Positions 30,950 through 43,453 of a stretch of DNA of 64,000 bases are shown piece after piece (positions within the stretch are counted from its first letter, which is position 1; each line of letters starts with the position of its first letter). The position numbers and the translations under genes were made by a program. The DNA comes from the human T2T-CHM13v2.0 reference genome, Homo sapiens. The notes below the pieces were generated by a model. The model did no database searches and was not told the DNA's origin. It saw only the letters and a program-made list of their open reading frames with translations. The DNA lies in NCBI RefSeq assembly GCF_009914755.1, contig NC_060932.1; one strand, written 5' to 3'.

Positions 30950-31710
30950 TTATATATATATAATATACAGATATTATTGCCTATTATATATGTAATATAC
31001 AGATATTATTGCCTATTATATACATAATATACAGATATTATTGCCTATTATATACGTAATATACAGATATTATTGCCTATTATATACGTAATATACAGAT
31101 ATTATTGCCTATTATATACGTAATATACAGATATTATTGCCTATTATATATGTAATTTACAGATATTATTGCCTATTATATATGTAATATACATATATTA
31201 CATATTATATATGTAATATACATATATTACATATTATATATGTAATATACATATATTACATATTATATATGTAATATACATATATTACATATTATATATG
31301 TAATATACATATATTACATATTATATATGTAATATACATATATTACATATTATATATGTAATATACATATTAATATACATATGTAACACGTATTACATAT
31401 GTATTATATGTAATATATGTATATATGTAATAGTATATGTAATATTACATATAACTAATTATTGTAACATGTAATTATATGTAATATTATATTACATATA
31501 ATATTACATATTACATATTACATATATTATATGTAATATTACATATAATATTATATATTATACATATATTATATGTGATATTACATATATTATATATGTG
31601 ATATTACATATATTATATATGTGATATATATGTTATATATGTAATATATGTATATTACATATATTAATATACTTATGTAATATACATATTAATATACATA
31701 TATATACACA
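30950..31710. repeat. Compound AT-rich minisatellite
   Basis: 7 x 32-bp units (30961-31184), 6 x 29-bp units (31185-31358), then a degenerate TA-rich tract. Confidence 0.95.
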
Positions 31711-31789
31711 TACTTTTGAAGTACCAGTCACTTGTCAAGCACCATAAACCAAAACACAATCTGTTTAATAAGGTTTCCAAATCATTAGA

Positions 31790-32485
31790 CGTCACTCAAA
31801 TAGATACTTTCAGCTAGACCTCACTCTCCAACAACTTTAAGTGTCTAGTGACTGAATGATGTCCTCACATAGCACCTGAACTTCAACAGGTCCAAACATG
31901 GTCTCCACAGCCCTCGCCCAACACACCTGCTTCTCCTTCTGTTCTTCCATTTGATTTAATGGCAGCACCATTTACCAAGTGCTCTAAACCAGAAACTTTT
32001 CATCAACTCATTTTTCCTCACCTCCCCCTGTCCCATCCTGTTGTGAAAATTACCTCAAACCTTCTTTCTGCCCCTCTCTTTATTTCTATTATTTCTTGCC
32101 TAAACCATTTGCAACAGCCTCTCAAATAACCTTGAAATAACTTTCCTACCTCCAAGTTCTTCCTTGTCCAATCTGTCCTCCCCACACTGTCACCAGAATG
32201 TGCCATCTTTGCTCTACTACCCACCAGTTGAAAATCTTTGCTAGGTTCTGTTCTAGAGTCTCTTTCATGAAAACTTTCTCATTCCTCTGTTGGCCTGGAA
32301 TTTTCCACTTCCTTCTTTGCACCCTCCCATACCTTGTACATCTATGGTTGCGCTTACCATAGTTGATTACACGTGTTTCCCTTGAGTAGCTTATAAACTT
32401 CTCAAAATCAAGATGATCTCATTCACTCCTGTACAACCAGTTCACTGAAAAGTGCCTGGCATATGGTAGGTGCTCACAACATTTT
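31790..32485 (+). mobile_element. L2 fragments
   Basis: aatggcagcaccatttaccaag ... agtgcctggcatatggtaggtgctc (L2 3' end). Confidence 0.65.
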
Positions 32486-33764: not shown

Positions 33765-34105
33765 AATATACACACCCATCATGGCCAGACCATATATAAA
33801 AATAGAACTCTGACCCGTGACCCCTGCAGCAACCTGACCCAGAGCGTCAAGACTTGATCAATAACCACAAGCTTCCCTAAGGTTTGCCCTTCCTTTCCCC
33901 CTTCCAACTCAGGACCAACCCGAGAAAGCCAAATATGTTTCCCAAGCTAATTGCATGGGATACCTGCCTCCAGGTCCCCGACGCCAGCAGCCTCCAATCG
34001 GGGCACAACTTAAAGCCTTCCGTTCTCCACGATGAAGGGTCCCCACTCCCCGGCCTGCCTCTGAGTCTTGCCACAGCAAGCTCTGAATAAACTGCCTCCC
34101 ACTAC
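33765..34105 (+). mobile_element. ERVL-type LTR remnant (MER68/MER77-like)
   Basis: aaaaatagaactctgaccc...aggaccaacccgagaaagccaaatatg...agcaagctctgaataaa. Confidence 0.55.
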
Positions 34106-34319
34106 CGTGGCCCTGGTGGATTTCCACCTGGGCGTCTGGAGCACACCGGGAGCTTGCCTACTGTGATGGAAGGCGCCTCTCCCTTGGTGGGGTTAGAGAG
34201 GTGGAACTGGAATTGGAAGGGTCACGTTCCAGTTCGGTGGGAGGAGTTGGGTGCAGGTAGATAGCCAGGGTGACGCCTCAGGCCAGGAGGTGGAGGTAGC
34301 TGGAGAAAGGAGGAAGGAG

Positions 34320-34880
34320 GCAAAGAAATCCTCCCTGCAGCGGTCCCCTGCGCCGGGCGCGGGAACAAGGGATGTGCGCGGCTCGTCCTTCCCCGGCCCG
34401 GCTGCTGAGGTGGCGGTGACTGTGGGGCAGCCGGGCCGTGCACGTCTGGAGACCGCCCGGGCGCTGGCCGCGGCTGGACCCCGGGAGCCGAACCGCGGGA
34501 GGGCGCTGTGCGGAGCCGGTGGTGGCCTGCTCGACGGAGGTGGCCGCCGTCACCCTACTGGTCCTGTGATACGTGCCCAAGGACTGCCCGGGAGCCAGAC
34601 CTGCCAGCGGGTGCAGGACACCAAGGTCAAGACTGGAGCAGGGAGAAATAGTGCTGCGGCCTGGAGAAGCGCATCAGCCAGGACCAGAGGACATCTGCGA
34701 GCTGCCGGGCGGCCAAGGGGAGGAAGTCCGGCTGGTGAACCTCGTGGTGGCGATGTGGCGCAGGTCCCCTAGGGTACCATGCTGCCTGCTACCACAGCAT
34801 CTTCAGGGAGGGTCACAGAAGAGGAGGAAGGCGCTGAACCCAGATTCCCGCCTGCTGTCAGCGTCCTAGGCCAGGGAGGG
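34320..34880. promoter_or_regulatory. CpG island (candidate promoter) overlapping the 5' part of the ATP2B-like pseudogene
   Basis: About 42 CpG in 34321-34760 by manual count and strongly GC-rich; the only non-Alu CpG-dense block in the window. Confidence 0.75.
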
Positions 34881-35717
34881 CTCTGGTTATAACTCACAAG
34901 CAGGCCTCATTGTTTTTCTGCTGGTTTTTTTGAAACTAAGAACAAAGGGAGTTAAAACAAAACAAAAACAGATTCTCATGGGACCAGCTGGGACACAACA
35001 GCCTGAGAGGGTGAAGGCAAAATGCGGCTGATTCAAACATACACCAAAAAACATATAATAATAATTTTGCAAGACAAACTTATAAAATTATCCATAATGA
35101 TTGGCAAGTGTGGTTGGCTCATGGCTATTTTCCTCATTGTCTCCTTAATGACAAATTTGGCAATACAGACTTTTGGGACTTGAGACAACCAAAGAATTTT
35201 AGATTGCATTGCAGTTTATACAGAATATATTATTGAGTTTTTCATTATGAGAATAACAATCTTGGTGGTGACTGTTCCTGAAAGCTTTTCTTTTGCAGTT
35301 CCCCTTTCCTTGGTTTATTCTGTAAAGAAAATGAAAGCTAATCACTCTGTGAGACATTTGGGTGCTTGTAAAACTATGGGAAATGCAACAGTCTTCTGTT
35401 CTGATAAAGCAAGCACATTACTATTCCAGGAGTCCAGGCTTCCATTGGTAAAGCTCATTGTGTAAGTCCCATATCCATTTAGAAATACGTTTTTGACAGG
35501 TATTGCTGTTCATTGTTCTTATAACAATTTTTTAGTTGTTGAGGGTCCACCCAAACAGATTGGCAATATAATAGAATGTGTCTTTTTGGGATTTCTTCAT
35601 CATTTCAGAATAGATGTTGAGAAAGAAAAGAAAAAAGAAAGTAAGGGAGGGAGGGAGGGAGAGAAGGAGGGAGGGAGGGAGGGAAAGAGAGAGAAGGAAA
35701 AGAAAGAGCATACCACA

Positions 35718-36003
<286 letters not shown>

Positions 36004-36346
36004 AGCATACCACATAAGAGTTTATAGCAAATATTAGCATATATCTTCAACTCAGAAAATCTATGACTACTGTCTTCAAACTGCCCGACGAGAGTTTTTG
36101 GTTGTTCAAAGAGGGAGTCTCAGAACTATCACTTAACAGGGGTGTCAAATCCTGAATGAAGAGGGAATCCCTGTGTTTTCCAAAGTGTCATGAAACCAAT
36201 GGCTTGTGCAGGGCTAAAAATACTGTGCCTGATATTCAGAAATTCTGCAGATACTGACAACAAACCTGGCTGAGCAATGCATAAGATATTACTACAGATC
36301 TTGCATGAATTGCTTTTGTAGGCATTGAAGATGCTATGAGAGCCAA

Positions 36347-36768
36347 GGTGTAAGTTTCCTGTGGCTGCTTCAACAAAGCTCTGCAACCTGAGTAGCTTGA
36401 AACAACAGGAATGTATTTTTATCCAGTTCTAGAGCCCAGAGGTCTCAGAGGCCATGTTCCTTCTGAAGGCTCCAGGGAAAAATTCTTCCTTGCTTTTCTC
36501 ACAGATTCTGGTGGTTGCTGGCAAACTTTGGCATTCCTTGACTTGGAGCTTCTAGCTTCATATGGCCTTCTGTCTTCTGTATTTCTGTGTCCAAATTTCT
36601 ATCTTTTTTTCAGGCCAGCACTTTACTGGATTAGGGCCCTCCGCAGTCTAATGTGACTTCATCTTGATTACATTTACAAAGACCTTATTCCAAATAAGGT
36701 CATGTTCACAGGAACCAGAGTTCGGACTTGAATACATCTTTTTGGGAGACATATTTCAACCGTCAACA
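36347..36768 (-). mobile_element. MLT1C-like MaLR LTR inserted between VGIED and PEVP codons
   Basis: agtttcctgtggctgc...gaaggctccagggaa...caaagaccttattccaaataaggtca; ATPase homology resumes at cct gag gtg cca (36769). Confidence 0.85.
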
Positions 36769-37022
36769 CCTGAGGTGCCAAATGCAGTTTCATAATGCCA
36801 GCATACTAGATTCACTGCGTGTGTGATTCTAGTGACAATCTCCACATTGTAAGGGCCGTTGCCCTGAAATATAGCATTGTAAAGGTCCCTGAAGGTTACC
36901 CATGTTTAGAGGGTACAGATTTCAAGAAACTAATGCGTAAAAATGACAATGGAGAAATTGAAAAAGAAAAAGGGCTCAAAAACAAGCGTTGGTCAAAATT
37001 TCATGTACTTGCAAGATCCAGC

Positions 37023-37497
37023 TGGTGATAGTTAATTTTCTGTGTTCATTTGACTGGGTTGAGGGATGCCTAGCTAACTGCTAGAAACATTGTTTCTGGG
37101 TGTGTCTTTGGGGCTGTTTCTGAAGGGGCTGTTAGCATTTAAATCAGTATACTAAAGATTGCCCTCACTTAATCTTTTGAGGGCCAAATAGAACTAAAGG
37201 GCAGAGGAAGGGTGAATTCATTCTCCCTGTTTGATCTGGGACATCTGTATTCTAATTCCCTGGGACATCAGCACTTCTCGGGCCTTCTTGGACTAGGAAT
37301 TATAGCAGCGGCTCTCCTGGTTCTCAGACCTTCAGACTCCGACTGAATTACACCACCAGCTCTCGTGGTTCTCCAACACACAGAAGGCTAATTGTGGGAC
37401 TTAGCACCCTCCATAATCATGTTAGTCAATTCCTATCATGAATCTTCTCCTATATAACTTGTTGCTTCTATTTCTCTAGAGAACCCTGGCTGATACC
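37023..37497 (+). mobile_element. MLT2B-like ERVL LTR inserted after VLARSS
   Basis: gtgatagttaattt...tttctctagagaaccctggctgatac; 5-bp TSD ccagc (37018-37022 / 37498-37502). Confidence 0.9.
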
Positions 37498-38168
37498 CCA
37501 GCCTTGCTGTTAAATATACTATTACTTAGTTAAAATGTGTAATGAATAATGTTTCAAGACAGAGGCAAATTGTAACAGTTACTGGTGATGGTCCTCGTGA
37601 TGGCCCAGTGTTAAAGAGAGCAGATGTTGGATCTGCAACGGGATTAACAGAAACAAAGATAGCTAAAGAAGTTTCCTATATCGTTCTTACCGATGACGAC
37701 CTTGCAAGTATTGTTAAAGCTGTCACATGCGGTAGAAATGTTTATGACAGCATCTTCACATTCCTTCCATTTCAGTTGGCTGTCAGTGTCACACTTGTCG
37801 CCTTCACAGCTGCATGTGTTGTTGTCCAGGATTCTCCTTCTAAAGCTGGTCAAACCCCTCTGGTGAATCTCATAGTGGATGCTTTTACTTCCTTCGCTCT
37901 GGCAACTGAAAAGACTATGGCATCACTTCTGCTTTGTAAATCTTATGGTGGAAAAAAATCTTTCCTGTCCATTTATAAAATTGGTGTATAACAATTTTAT
38001 ATACAGTGTATAGTTACTTTTAGTCTTATGTTTGCTATAAACTCCTTTTTTAATTTTGAAAGTGGAAGAAACACCATCCTACATGCTCTTCCTTCTCTCC
38101 TTCTACCTATTTTGTAATGATATGTTTATAATGATATATTTATAATTTAGTACTTCTGTTGGATGCAA

Positions 38169-38332
38169 CATATATATGTATATATGTATATGTATATATG
38201 TATATATGTATATGTATATATGTGTATATATGTATATGTATATATGTATATGTATATATGTGTATATATATGTATATGTATATATGTGTATATATATGTA
38301 TATGTATATATGTATATATGTATATATATATA
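38169..38332. repeat. (TATATG/TATG)n microsatellite replacing an Alu poly-T tail
   Basis: Alternating purine-pyrimidine run abutting the 3' end of the antisense Alu. Confidence 0.93.
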
Positions 38333-38612
38333 TGGAGTTTCACTCTTTGTTACCCAGACTGGAGTGCAGTGGCACGATCTTGGCTTACTGCAACCTTGCC
38401 TTCTGGGTTCAAGCGATTCTCCTGCCTCAGCCTCCCGAGTAGCTGGGATTACAGGTGCCCACCACCATGCCCAGCTAATTTTTTGTATTTTTAGTAGAGA
38501 TGGGGTTTCACCATATTGGGCAGGCTGGTCTCGAACTCCTGACCTCAGGTGATCCACCTGCCTCGGCCTCCCAAAGTGCTGGGATTACAGGCATGAGCCA
38601 CCGCACCTGGCC
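38333..38612 (-). mobile_element. AluSx/Sq-like, inserted at the MQ|LFNE codons
   Basis: ctcctgacctcaggtgatccacc; pseudogene sequence atgcaac resumes as aactttttaatgaa. Confidence 0.9.
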
Positions 38613-38696
38613 AACTTTTTAATGAAATGAATGCCAGGAAGCTTCATTGCAAAACAAACATATTTGAAAGACTTTTCGGTAATATCTTTTGTCTAA

Positions 38697-39065
<369 letters not shown>

Positions 39066-39119
39066 TGATTTAGTAAGTTATTTACTTAATTTACTAAATA
39101 TACGTCAGAGTCAGAATTA

Positions 39120-40657: not shown

Positions 40658-42919
40658 TGAGTCATCTTATATTTGGACACTTTTGCCTTAAAGATTTAGC
40701 TTTAAGGTTACATTTGGAAGATTTCACGTTTGGATTTGTCACCAAACTCCAGAAATTTTGCTCTTAATTATCCATTATGGGGAACAATAGACTCTACCCC
40801 TTTCCGTGTTTCTGTTTGATTGTTCTGCATAACAAACTTACGATGAAATGATTTTAAAATATAAGGTCTACTACACATACAGAGCCAGGGAATTTGGCCC
40901 TGTAGTTTGTTTACCTCCTTGTCTGTATAGATTCTTTCAATAAATCAGGCATTTGTTTGAAAGCTCCAGTGTCAACAGCACTGTTCTAAGTATTTTAGAG
41001 CGTTAGGGACAACAGAGATATGCTCTCTCTCTTAGAGCAAATTTTTGAACAATAAACTTTATAAAGCAAGAATATACTTAAATAGACGCTTTTTGCTTAC
41101 TGGAGAACCCACTAACTACCAAATTTACGGTTCGTAACTTCATATGCACTAGAGAACCCCATGAGAATTCAGGCTTCCCAAAGTTTAAAAAGCTTCTTAC
41201 TCACTTATGATTTTGCTTTCTTTTGTTTTTTTTTATCAGTCACAACAAGCCTCAGACTTTTACTAATGGATATTGCTATTTTCTAACAAGGAGGGAATCG
41301 CTTCTCATTACCACAGTTGCAATTTGTATTTATGAGGACATAATGACAAGAACCATCTAAATATGTCTAGTAATCTGACGAGCCCAAACCCGAAGATTCT
41401 TAAGAAAATGCTTACTTTAATTCTAACATAAAAGTTAGAAACACGTCTTTTCTGAATTATTTGAATGCCTGCTAAAAGAATCAATGGATTAAAAAAAATC
41501 ATTTGCTGCTTTCTTTGATTAATACAGTTAAAATAATCAGTGATTAAAAAAAAACCATGCTGTAATTGAGCTTCTATTTGAAAGTTTTGAAGAATTGTTA
41601 ACTCTCAGATATCACACAGTGGGATATGCTTTAGTTTATGGGGAAGTTATATCCAAGAGTGATCATTACTTATTTCTGATTTCTAAACAACAATGTTTGC
41701 TACTATTTTTTTGAATTATGATGCAATAATTGACTTATGAAATACATTTTTATCAACCTTTGTATAATATCAAGGCTGTTAACATTCTGAAAAAGAAAAT
41801 GATATTAACAGTAATGATGCTTCTTAATTTCCTCCTTGTGTCCAAAGAAGTTGCTAACAGGACATCCTCCTGAGAAGGAAGGAAGGACTTCTCATTCTGA
41901 CTCAATTATTATTCGCTTCTTTCTCTAAGCAATCCGGAGTCAGCTTTGAAAGGGGAGAATTCCTCTCTGGCCACAGCCCTGTGGAGCTGGGATGTTAGCC
42001 TGTTAAATTCATAGCTCATTTGTCCGTACCTTTCCCCACCTTCCAGCTGCAGGAATTCAATCTCCAGGCCTGGCAATAACTCGGAGGAACTAGTTCCAGG
42101 GCAGAAGAATCTCAGCTGGCACTAAAAGAAGTTACGTGGCTCCCAACCACATGGCGGCAGTCTTCGTGGTCACAAAGAGAATGGGGCTGTCCTCTTTTCC
42201 TCCACTCTTTTCTAGGACTGCTTTTCTCTTTCAGGATTGCCTCAGGTGATGATTTAAATCCAATTTATTTCACTAGTATGTGTCTGTCTTGGGGAGAGGA
42301 GTTGGTTCACCAGGACTTGAGGCAGAATCTGTTAATCCTTCCTTGCCCCTGACTCATCCCCTCCAATCTTCAGGGGAAGCTCTGCTGGTTGCCATTGGCA
42401 AAAGAACTTGCTTGCATCACAATTAGTACTCTATAGCCAAGTCTTTGCCAATAGGGTTAAGGCAACAAAAAAGTGAACTCCAGAAACATCAAGGAGAGTA
42501 CTAGTGGGTTTTTTGACAAATGGGATATAACTAGCTTAGTGACCTTGTCCCACCTCATTTATTTTATGTTCTCCATTATTAGAACAATTGTCCTTCATAA
42601 GTGCTTTTCCCTACCTGTTTTCCAAAAACTATCAGTGGATCATATTTGCTATGACATTAAATGTAACTGTGACTTGGCTTTTAAAGCCTTTCAAAATCCA
42701 GCTCCACCATGCCTTTCTGAATTCACTCCCTAAAGCTCCATAATCCTGAGTAAATTCTCATTTCAATTGGAATCATTTCCATAAATATTCATTGAGCACC
42801 TAGTTAATCCCAGACACTGTGCTATGTACTAGGAATAAATAAGATAAAGTCCCTGCCCTATAGGAGTTCAGGACATATCAGGAGAATTAACACGAATGTA
42901 GCTATAATATAATCATAAT

Positions 42920-43145
42920 AATAACAATCATTAACTTTATTGAGCCCATTCGTATAGTCCAGGCACCGTTCTAAGCATTTCATATCAATGTCTTTAATCC
43001 TCACAACAAACCTATGAGGTGGTATCATCAGTATCCTCATTTTATAGCTGAACCTCAGAGAGGTTGTTTTCCAAGATCACACAGTTAATAAATGAGTAAC
43101 TGAATCCAGACAATCTGGCTACAGAACCTACTTCCTTAACTACTA
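42920..43145 (-). mobile_element. MIR
   Basis: tttaatcctcacaacaaacctatgaggt...cctcattttatag...cagagagg. Confidence 0.8.
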
Positions 43146-43453
43146 TTATTATATAGATATTGTGAAGAGAGCTGTACTGGAAATGGAACAAAGGCTACAG
43201 GAACAGAAAGGATGCAATTCATTCAGCTTGGGGATATGGGAAATGGTGTCACAGAGACAATCTTGCTCTATTCCTTATTTATGTATACCCCTACCTCCTG
43301 GAAAGGAATCAGGACAGCTCACACTGGGAAAGGTATGCATTAAAGTAATGATAAAATTTAGAAATAAGGAGTCAGAACCAGGGACAATGTAAATATTGTA
43401 AGAAAATCAAGGCCAGAGGAAAAGTAAATTTCTTCTTAAAGGCATAGCTTAGT

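What the first reader, a model, noticed from the sequence alone, without database searches (positions are those of the whole stretch)
34320..34885. CpG island built from the coding sequence of a dead ATPase retrocopy
The island still translates to PMCA TM1/A-domain motifs (GRALCG; GGQ..LVV.DVAQV; KALNPDSRLLS), yet has ~42 CpG in 440 bp. The same retrocopy becomes AT-rich and almost CpG-free after ~34885. MLT insertions imply coding function was lost early in eutherian evolution, long enough for methylated CpGs to decay. The island therefore appears to be maintained by germline hypomethylation, GC-biased gene conversion or selection as an exapted promoter or enhancer, for example for a lncRNA (inference).
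Basis: partly seen in the sequence, partly recalled or inferred. Interest (0 to 1): 0.75.

Follow-up and report, generated by a model that had tools for sequence, protein, structure and literature searches.

The report
CpG island outliving its calcium-pump retrogene
On human chromosome 8 a CpG island overlaps the front part of a broken, intron-less copy of a calcium-pump gene; the copy likely worked as a real gene long ago and gained the island as its promoter region, and the island has likely survived the gene's death by staying unmethylated in the germline.

Summary
The island is real: 42 CpG in 441 bp, the only Takai-Jones island in 64 kb. It overlaps a processed PMCA pseudogene (LOC442382) that runs 34631-39065, beyond its annotated span. 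Only the 3' 255 bp (12 of 45 CpG) is firmly coding-derived; the CpG-densest 5' part is suggestive at best.

The closest parent, ATP2B1, is itself AT-rich and CpG-poor. So the AT-rich body is inherited, and the island was gained rather than spared from decay.

Two results change the reading. (1) The copy carries marks of past protein selection: pump-invariant residues are kept better than variable ones (60% vs 41%), second codon positions better than first, and stops are few. (2) Its GC gain follows codon phase: GC3 falls 0.84, 0.58, then about 0.3 from the 5' end, and exceeds GC2. This fits a working retrogene with a 5' GC peak.

An old repeat abutting the island also gained GC and CpG relative to sister copies, so the force likely continued after the gene died.

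Methylation, transcription and present function could not be tested; no evidence of exaptation was found. Retrocopy islands and retrogene GC gain are known; this combination is a variant.

The parts
34013..34893 (.). CpG island by 500 bp / 55% GC / 0.65 o/e windows (55 CpG); dense core 34320-34760
33781..34100 (+). Old LTR-like interspersed repeat abutting the island (MER39/MER21-like by recall); richer in GC and CpG than its sister copies
   Evidence: 45 genome matches, 67-80% for the longer ones; pairwise comparison with 20 copies
34320..34397 (.). Unassigned GC-rich 5' edge of the island (9 CpG); no PMCA similarity
34398..34630 (+). CpG-densest part (24 CpG); co-linear with PMCA TM1-TM2 (aa ~98-173), homology suggestive only
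34631..34885 (+). Pseudo-coding PMCA aa 174-271 (A domain), GC3-rich, 12 CpG, with stops, frameshifts and loss of the TGES loop; outside the RefSeq span
34886..35640 (+). Pseudo-coding linker, TM3-TM4 and phosphorylation motif (CSDK kept); AT-rich like ATP2B1
35641..36009 (+). Purine-rich simple repeat plus Alu-type insertion (name recalled)
   Evidence: sequence; hub mask 35614-36012
36010..36350 (+). Pseudo-coding N domain
36351..36771 (.). Old LTR-type insertion 1 (MLT1-like by recall); no GC bias against sister copies
36772..37025 (+). Pseudo-coding P-domain segment
37027..37495 (.). Old LTR-type insertion 2 (MLT2-like by recall); no GC bias against sister copies
37520..38096 (+). Pseudo-coding hinge and TM5-TM7; contains a 153-codon stop-free stretch
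38612..39065 (+). Pseudo-coding TM8-TM10 and last recognisable codons, split by an Alu-type insertion at about 38828-39002; beyond the RefSeq span

Best explanation
The island overlaps the 5' coding part of an intron-less, now broken copy of an ATP2B1-type calcium pump gene and is likely the promoter-side GC/CpG peak of a retrogene that once worked, likely kept since by low germline methylation and GC-biased gene conversion. Steps: (1) shown - an AT-rich, CpG-poor ATP2B1-type mRNA was copied without introns; (2) shown statistically - the copy then evolved for a time under protein-level selection; (3) shown - GC rose only at its 5' end and mostly at third codon positions; inferred - because in an intron-less gene these codons lie next to the promoter, in the unmethylated, recombination-prone zone; (4) shown - the frame broke and old repeats inserted; inferred - on or before the eutherian stem; (5) shown - sequence next to the island kept gaining or keeping G, C and CpG after an old repeat landed there; inferred - an unmethylated island sustains itself, so no present function is required.
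For: Parent: all five body segments align best to ATP2B1 (62-68% nt), whose CDS has GC 0.36-0.44. Intron-less: 10 of 13 ATP2B1 junctions checked are crossed within 4 nt; the other 3 fell outside those segments and are continuous. Past selection: residues invariant out to invertebrates are 60% kept (169 of 280) vs 41% (46 of 111) for variable ones, Fisher p=0.001, 1 of 2000 neutral simulations; first positions change 1.8x more than second, p=0.0004, or p=0.0009 without Leu/Arg and CpG sites; 9 stops in 608 codons vs 16.1+-3.8 simulated, and milder amino-acid changes, p=0.005. Codon-phased gain: island GC1-3 0.63/0.53/0.77 vs ATP2B1 0.59/0.35/0.33 over 83 codons, GC3>GC2 p=0.002; position-blind GC-biased simulations reach the gap in at most 2 of 5000; GC3 falls 0.84, 0.58, 0.36, then 0.20-0.42. 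9 of 12 aligned CpGs sit where none of the four paralogs has one, 1 of 12 where ATP2B1 has. At paralog-invariant sites AT>GC: GC>AT is 23:14 in the island, 95:134 in the body, p=0.02. Later force: the abutting repeat exceeds 18 of 20 sister copies in GC and 20 of 20 in aligned CpG (155 vs 33), with the bias rising toward the island; the two body inserts show no GC bias (370:407, 451:442). Literature: functional retrogenes gain GC4 while pseudogenic ones lose it (PMC7181179, passages); 5' GC peaks reach into the ORF and are attributed to hypomethylation and TSS recombination (PMC11323403, passages).
Against: No methylation, CAGE or cross-species alignment was available, so steps 3 and 5 lack direct evidence. 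No start codon, TSS or aa 1-97 homology was found. The CpG-densest half is not shown to be coding-derived. The island test rests on 83 codons; at 4-fold sites alone GC is 0.58 (n=19), and at first positions no AT>GC bias is seen (6:12). Four-fold divergence (K 0.90) is about twice the zero-fold mean (0.32 and 0.54), as a dead-on-arrival copy would also give. The third-position control leans the same way as the invariant-site test (0.42 vs 0.51, p=0.09). Repeat comparisons share one sequence and are not independent; one sister copy has as many CpG over its whole stretch, and insert 2 also exceeds 8 of 10 sisters in CpG (40 vs 22). At DNA level the island aligns better to ATP2B2 (65%) than ATP2B1 (59%). 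Functional retrogenes usually gain GC gene-wide, yet this body did not.
Confidence: 0.58

Rival explanations
1. Exapted element: whatever its origin, the island is now kept by selection as an orphan promoter or enhancer, for example for LOC100128993, LOC105379300 or SH2D4A. This is compatible with the best explanation's history and differs only in why the island persists.
For: Persistence over long time; it lies in an intron of one lncRNA and 8 kb from two lncRNA 5' ends (hub table). Orphan islands often carry promoter marks (PMC2944787, passages). Two GC boxes.
Against: No annotated TSS, exon or RefSeq functional element here (hub table). Two GC boxes are unremarkable at 70% GC; no NRF1, ETS, E-box or ZFP57 motif (recalled motifs). 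The bias extends into an ordinary repeat, as a regional neutral force would.
Confidence: 0.2
2. Dead-on-arrival copy of a now-lost, diverged PMCA1-like paralog. Protein-selection marks and GC3 would come from that parent, or from insertion beside an existing orphan island whose gBGC spread into it.
For: A diverged PMCA1-like clade exists intact in turtles. The copy keeps ancestral Q536, C638, F548, F893 lost in mammal and lizard ATP2B1. Best tree positions are basal to amniote ATP2B1. K4/K0 near 2. The 5' half of the island may be non-coding.
Against: A GC3 peak limited to aa 174-290 fits distance from a promoter in an intron-less copy, not exons 3-5 of a spliced parent. Neutral spread cannot make GC3 exceed GC2. 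Matches to turtle-derived residues (9 of 50 changed sites) are no more frequent than to ATP2B4-derived ones (3 of 15).
Confidence: 0.14
3. Chimeric retrocopy: a GC-rich ATP2B2/ATP2B3 5' part joined to an ATP2B1 body, so the island's GC is inherited.
For: The island aligns best to ATP2B2 at DNA level; only ATP2B2 and ATP2B3 give signal in 34398-34630.
Against: Any GC3-rich recoding resembles ATP2B2/3 (GC3 0.70-0.87). At ATP2B2-diagnostic residues in the island the copy does not take the B2 state. On 79 island columns the best tree has the copy in the ATP2B1 clade; B2 and B3 placements are rejected under 1 of 3 models and not under the other 2. 9 of 12 CpGs are absent from all paralogs.
Confidence: 0.05
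4. RB1-like imprinted or germline-differentially-methylated island, unmethylated in sperm and methylated in oocytes by read-through from the lncRNA or the abutting LTR-like repeat.
For: Intronic retrocopy island, as at RB1/PPP1R26P1 (PMC3839921).
Against: In the maternal gDMR table of PMC5106035 consecutive rows jump from chr8:18.93 to 19.46 Mb, across the island's position (about 19.095 Mb in hg19, from recalled offsets). No hit for the locus names in the supplement of PMC9665137 (no neighbouring gene was found either, so weak) or in 12 of 18 supplements of PMC9255983.
Confidence: 0.03

Closest known systems
RB1 CpG85 in PPP1R26P1 and other retrocopy-associated CpG islands (PMC3839921; PMC4122923: 665 in human)
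   Same: CpG island lying in coding-derived sequence of a processed pseudogene inside another gene's intron.
   Different: There the parent exon is already CpG-rich and the copy is anthropoid-age; here the parent is CpG-poor, the island was gained, the copy is far older (46% aa identity) and no imprint is listed. 77 of 104 comparable intronic islands are heavily methylated in monocytes.
Functional retrogenes with gained GC4 and CpG-island promoters (PMC7181179; PMC4772013)
   Same: Intron-less copy, synonymous GC above the parent's, orphan island at the 5' end, signs of protein selection.
   Different: This copy is dead, the gain is confined to the first part, and no TSS is shown.
5' GC peak of amniote genes shaped by hypomethylation and TSS recombination (PMC11323403; PMC11161765)
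   Same: GC gradient falling into the ORF; AT-to-GC bias near the island.
   Different: No living gene is attached; recombination and methylation here were not measured.
Unitary pseudogenes (lost established genes; PMC2864566, search listing only)
   Same: Once-functional gene disabled and left in place.
   Different: It is processed and has living paralogs; no intact ortholog was found.
Turtle PMCA1-like clade (P0001, P0069-P0071)
   Same: Diverged ATP2B1-related pump; shares ancestral residues and a few derived ones (K902, N1059, L1068) with the copy.
   Different: Intact; intron state and synteny unknown; kinship neither supported nor rejected.

Membership tests
CpG island | Length, GC and CpG o/e thresholds | tested here: met
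   34181-34731 passes 200/0.5/0.6 windows; 34013-34893 passes 500/0.55/0.65 windows, though o/e over that whole span is 0.60
CpG island | Unmethylated in germline | not testable with these tools
   Human CAP-seq table of PMC2944787 too large to read; indirect support only
Processed pseudogene of PMCA | Homology to PMCA, closest to ATP2B1 | tested here: met
Processed pseudogene of PMCA | Parent introns absent | tested here: met
   10 of 13 junctions crossed; other 3 continuous
Processed pseudogene of PMCA | Disabled frame | tested here: met
   11 frameshifts and 11 stops over 785 aligned codons; TGES lost, PEGLP changed
Processed pseudogene of PMCA | Poly(A) tail and target-site duplication | tested here: inconclusive
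   None seen by eye after 39065; not expected at this age
Formerly functional retrogene | Purifying selection on the copy's own branch | tested here: met
   Three site-pattern tests; no branch dN/dS; K4/K0 uninformative
Formerly functional retrogene | Intact syntenic ortholog in an outgroup | tested here: inconclusive
   No long protein above 61%; one search returned none; searches are weak and give no synteny
Retrocopy island inherited from parent (RB1 type) | Parent region already CpG-rich | tested here: not met
   ATP2B1 aa 70-275: 3 CpG in 618 nt
Imprinted germline DMR | Parent-specific methylation | not testable with these tools
   Absent from the lists searched; not all files searched
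Orphan-island promoter or enhancer | CAGE, H3K4me3, Pol II or reporter activity | not testable with these tools
   No such data in session
Ortholog of turtle PMCA1-like gene | Sister grouping and synteny | tested here: inconclusive
   Best tree under JTT, within 0.5-1.5 log units under gamma models; synteny untested

The most novel reading that the evidence does not exclude
LOC442382 is the remnant of a fifth amniote PMCA gene, an intron-less ATP2B1 sister older than the mammal-reptile split and still intact in turtles, lost on the eutherian stem, whose promoter island remains germline-unmethylated and still active as an orphan regulatory element.
Probability: 0.12. Interest if true: 0.68.

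Novelty: new variant of a known kind. Interest (0 to 1): 0.42.

Why it matters
It offers a dated, internally controlled case of how a CpG island is born and how long it outlasts its gene: the starting sequence is known from four conserved paralogs, codon phase separates gain during coding life from gain afterwards, and flanking repeats act as clocks. That bears on whether orphan islands need selection to persist. It also points to an unrecognised ancient calcium-pump retrogene lost in placental mammals. The codon-phased GC test could be run across old pseudogenes to find other former retrogenes. No medical or functional consequence is shown.

Tried and rejected
Recent unrelated insertion: genome searches gave only the self-hit. 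Tandem or internal repeat origin: only short chance-level repeats. CpG decay as cause of the AT-rich body: rejected, the parent is equally AT-rich. Insert 1 as a retained intron, since it lies near the aa 685/686 junction: rejected, codons 685-687 are contiguous on its right side and it is a multi-copy repeat. Direct child of recent human-lineage ATP2B1: rejected or borderline in the tree tests (pAU 0.003-0.06), but placement with mammalian ATP2B1 is rejected only without rate variation. Tree results used a wrongly framed 21-codon tail and were discarded. The bacterial promoter scan does not apply. Mouse CAP-seq table searches were uninformative. Literature: LOC442382 in 0 papers; LOC100128993 in 12, by listing GWAS or clinical mentions, none read; searches listed nothing on this locus or on an ATP2B1 retrogene. 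Grothaus 2016 was not held and is known only through a review passage. Supplements not seen (human table of PMC2944787, files 13-15 of PMC5106035, 13-18 of PMC9255983, file 1 of PMC4122923) may list the island. No structure prediction was run; it would not bear on the question.

Full report
Observation. The island is there: 42 CpG in 34320-34760 (GC 0.705, o/e 0.78) and 45 in 34320-34885, against a window mean o/e of 0.24. It is the only stretch of the 64 kb passing 500-bp windows at 55% GC and o/e 0.65 (34013-34893). The next 725 bp hold 2 CpG. Genome-wide DNA searches with 34200-35600 and 34100-34640 returned only the locus itself; these searches miss weak matches.

What it overlaps. The downstream sequence matches PMCA structures and the four human ATP2B genes. 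Frameshift-aware alignment traces a PMCA frame from aa 174 at 34631 to about aa 1071 at 39065, with 11 stops and 11 frameshifts over the 785 codons aligned up to 38809, broken by two old LTR-type inserts and three Alu-type inserts. RefSeq covers only 35331-37767. Parent introns are absent: 10 of 13 junctions are crossed within 4 nt, and the other three are continuous. All five body segments align best to ATP2B1 (62-68% nt, 0 of 100 shuffles each).

How much of the island is coding-derived. 34631-34885 certainly is (0 of 40 and 0 of 100 shuffles), but it has only 12 CpG (o/e 0.47). 34398-34630 (24 CpG) is co-linear with TM1-TM2 yet fails protein-profile and anchored tests (56 and 24 of 100; 24-25 of 200). 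It scores only against ATP2B2 and ATP2B3, with ends chosen after the fact (9 and 2 of 1000; ATP2B1 804, ATP2B4 524). Nothing aligns upstream of 34398. The title is therefore proven for under half of the island.

Gain, not escape from decay. ATP2B1's coding sequence has GC 0.36-0.44 and 3 CpG in aa 70-275. The copy's body matches it (GC3 0.31 vs 0.31). In the island part the copy has GC1-3 of 0.63/0.53/0.77 against 0.59/0.35/0.33 (83 codons). Second and third positions start equal in the parent, so a position-blind force should leave them equal; simulations reach the observed gap in at most 2 of 5000 runs under four rate settings. GC3 falls 0.84, 0.58, 0.36 along the copy and then stays at 0.20-0.42. 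Nine of 12 aligned CpGs are at places where no paralog has one. At invariant second positions AT>GC outnumbers GC>AT 17:2 in the island and 53:50 in the body; first positions show no such bias (6:12).

The copy was once under protein selection. With a position-blind DNA aligner, residues invariant to invertebrates are kept in 169 of 280 cases and variable ones in 46 of 111 (p=0.001; 1 of 2000 neutral simulations; third-position control p=0.09). First positions change 1.8 times more than second at equal base. Stops number 9 in 608 codons against 16+-4, and changes are milder than simulated. Against this, four-fold divergence is about twice zero-fold, which a dead-on-arrival copy would also give. 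The selection marks could in principle come from a lost intermediate parent.

Age. By hand (Jukes-Cantor) the 22% change at first and second positions of invariant codons is about 0.26 substitutions per site, and the inserts' 71-77% identity to sisters is about 0.15 per copy. By recalled calibration this puts the loss at or before the placental radiation; it is rough. Protein trees put the copy in the ATP2B1 clade (support 94/73) on a very long branch. Best placements are basal to amniote ATP2B1 or beside an intact turtle PMCA1-like clade found; a mammalian-ATP2B1 origin is rejected only without rate variation. The copy keeps four ancestral residues lost in mammal and lizard ATP2B1, and three ATP2B1-specific ones, of 11 diagnostic sites. 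Shared turtle-derived residues are at the background rate. No intact close relative was found.

The force continued late. An old LTR-like repeat abuts the island. Pairwise, it has more G+C than 18 of 20 sister copies (the 20 fetched of 44 other matches, chosen for long alignments) and more aligned CpG than all 20; the excess rises toward the island. The two inserts 1.5-2.6 kb downstream show no GC excess against 10 sisters each, though insert 2 has somewhat more CpG. The comparisons share one sequence, so they rank this copy rather than give a p-value.

Mechanism. Most likely (0.58) an ATP2B1-type retrogene acquired a promoter, its first codons became GC- and CpG-rich as in living retrogenes and 5' GC peaks (PMC7181179 passages; PMC11323403 passages; PMC4772013 passages; PMC11161765 abstract), the gene died, and the unmethylated island persisted neutrally. 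Composition, codon phase, selection marks and the repeat bias are computed; promoter role, germline methylation state, gBGC and dates are inferred. Rivals: present-day exaptation (0.2), dead copy of a lost paralog or spread from a prior island (0.14), chimera (0.05), imprint (0.03).

Comparison and novelty. Retrocopy islands are common: 665 in human, and 77 of 104 comparable intronic ones are heavily methylated (PMC4122923, abstract, introduction, part of methods and passages). RB1's CpG85 came from a CpG-rich parent exon (PMC3839921, abstract and passages); that defining feature is not met here. The island is not in the maternal gDMR table of PMC5106035 (supplement rows; hg19 position from recalled offsets), nor found in PMC9665137 (abstract, supplement search) or 12 of 18 supplements of PMC9255983. 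LOC442382 occurs in no searchable paper. Each ingredient is known; an island gained in the coding phase of a since-lost retrogene from a CpG-poor parent is a variant. Interest 0.42.

Noticed in passing
P0001, P0069, P0070, P0071: Turtles (side-necked and hidden-necked) carry an intact second PMCA1-like protein, 88% among themselves and 78-79% to mammal and lizard ATP2B1; no non-turtle member among the 120 listed hits.
   Followed up: partly
window 34631-35330 and 37768-39065: The pseudogene extends about 700 bp upstream and 1.3 kb downstream of its RefSeq span.
   Followed up: yes
window 39003-39068: The last 20 recognisable codons match the turtle clade at 7-8 positions and ATP2B1 at 4; similarity then stops before the calmodulin-binding tail.
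   Followed up: partly
P0004: A Peromyscus 'ATP2B1-like, low quality' protein nests in mammalian ATP2B1 with a short branch and a triplicated linker; probably a separate young copy.
   Followed up: no
P0005: A diverged, C-terminally short fish PMCA1-like protein attracts the copy in the tree, probably by long-branch attraction.
   Followed up: partly
P0220: A 62-aa unnamed library entry 95% identical to the 37530-37988 open stretch; likely an ORF call on a related copy of this pseudogene.
   Followed up: no
window 31000-31800: Very AT-rich stretch (GC 0.12-0.22) 2.5 kb upstream of the island.
   Followed up: no
window 42030-43332: The 5' ends of LOC100128993 (-) and LOC105379300 (+) face apart about 70 bp from each other in CpG-poor sequence: a bidirectional non-island promoter 8 kb from the island.
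   Followed up: no
hg19 chr8:19458954-19460959 (PMC5106035 table): A maternal germline DMR is listed at the CSGALNACT1 promoter, several hundred kb from this island.
   Followed up: no
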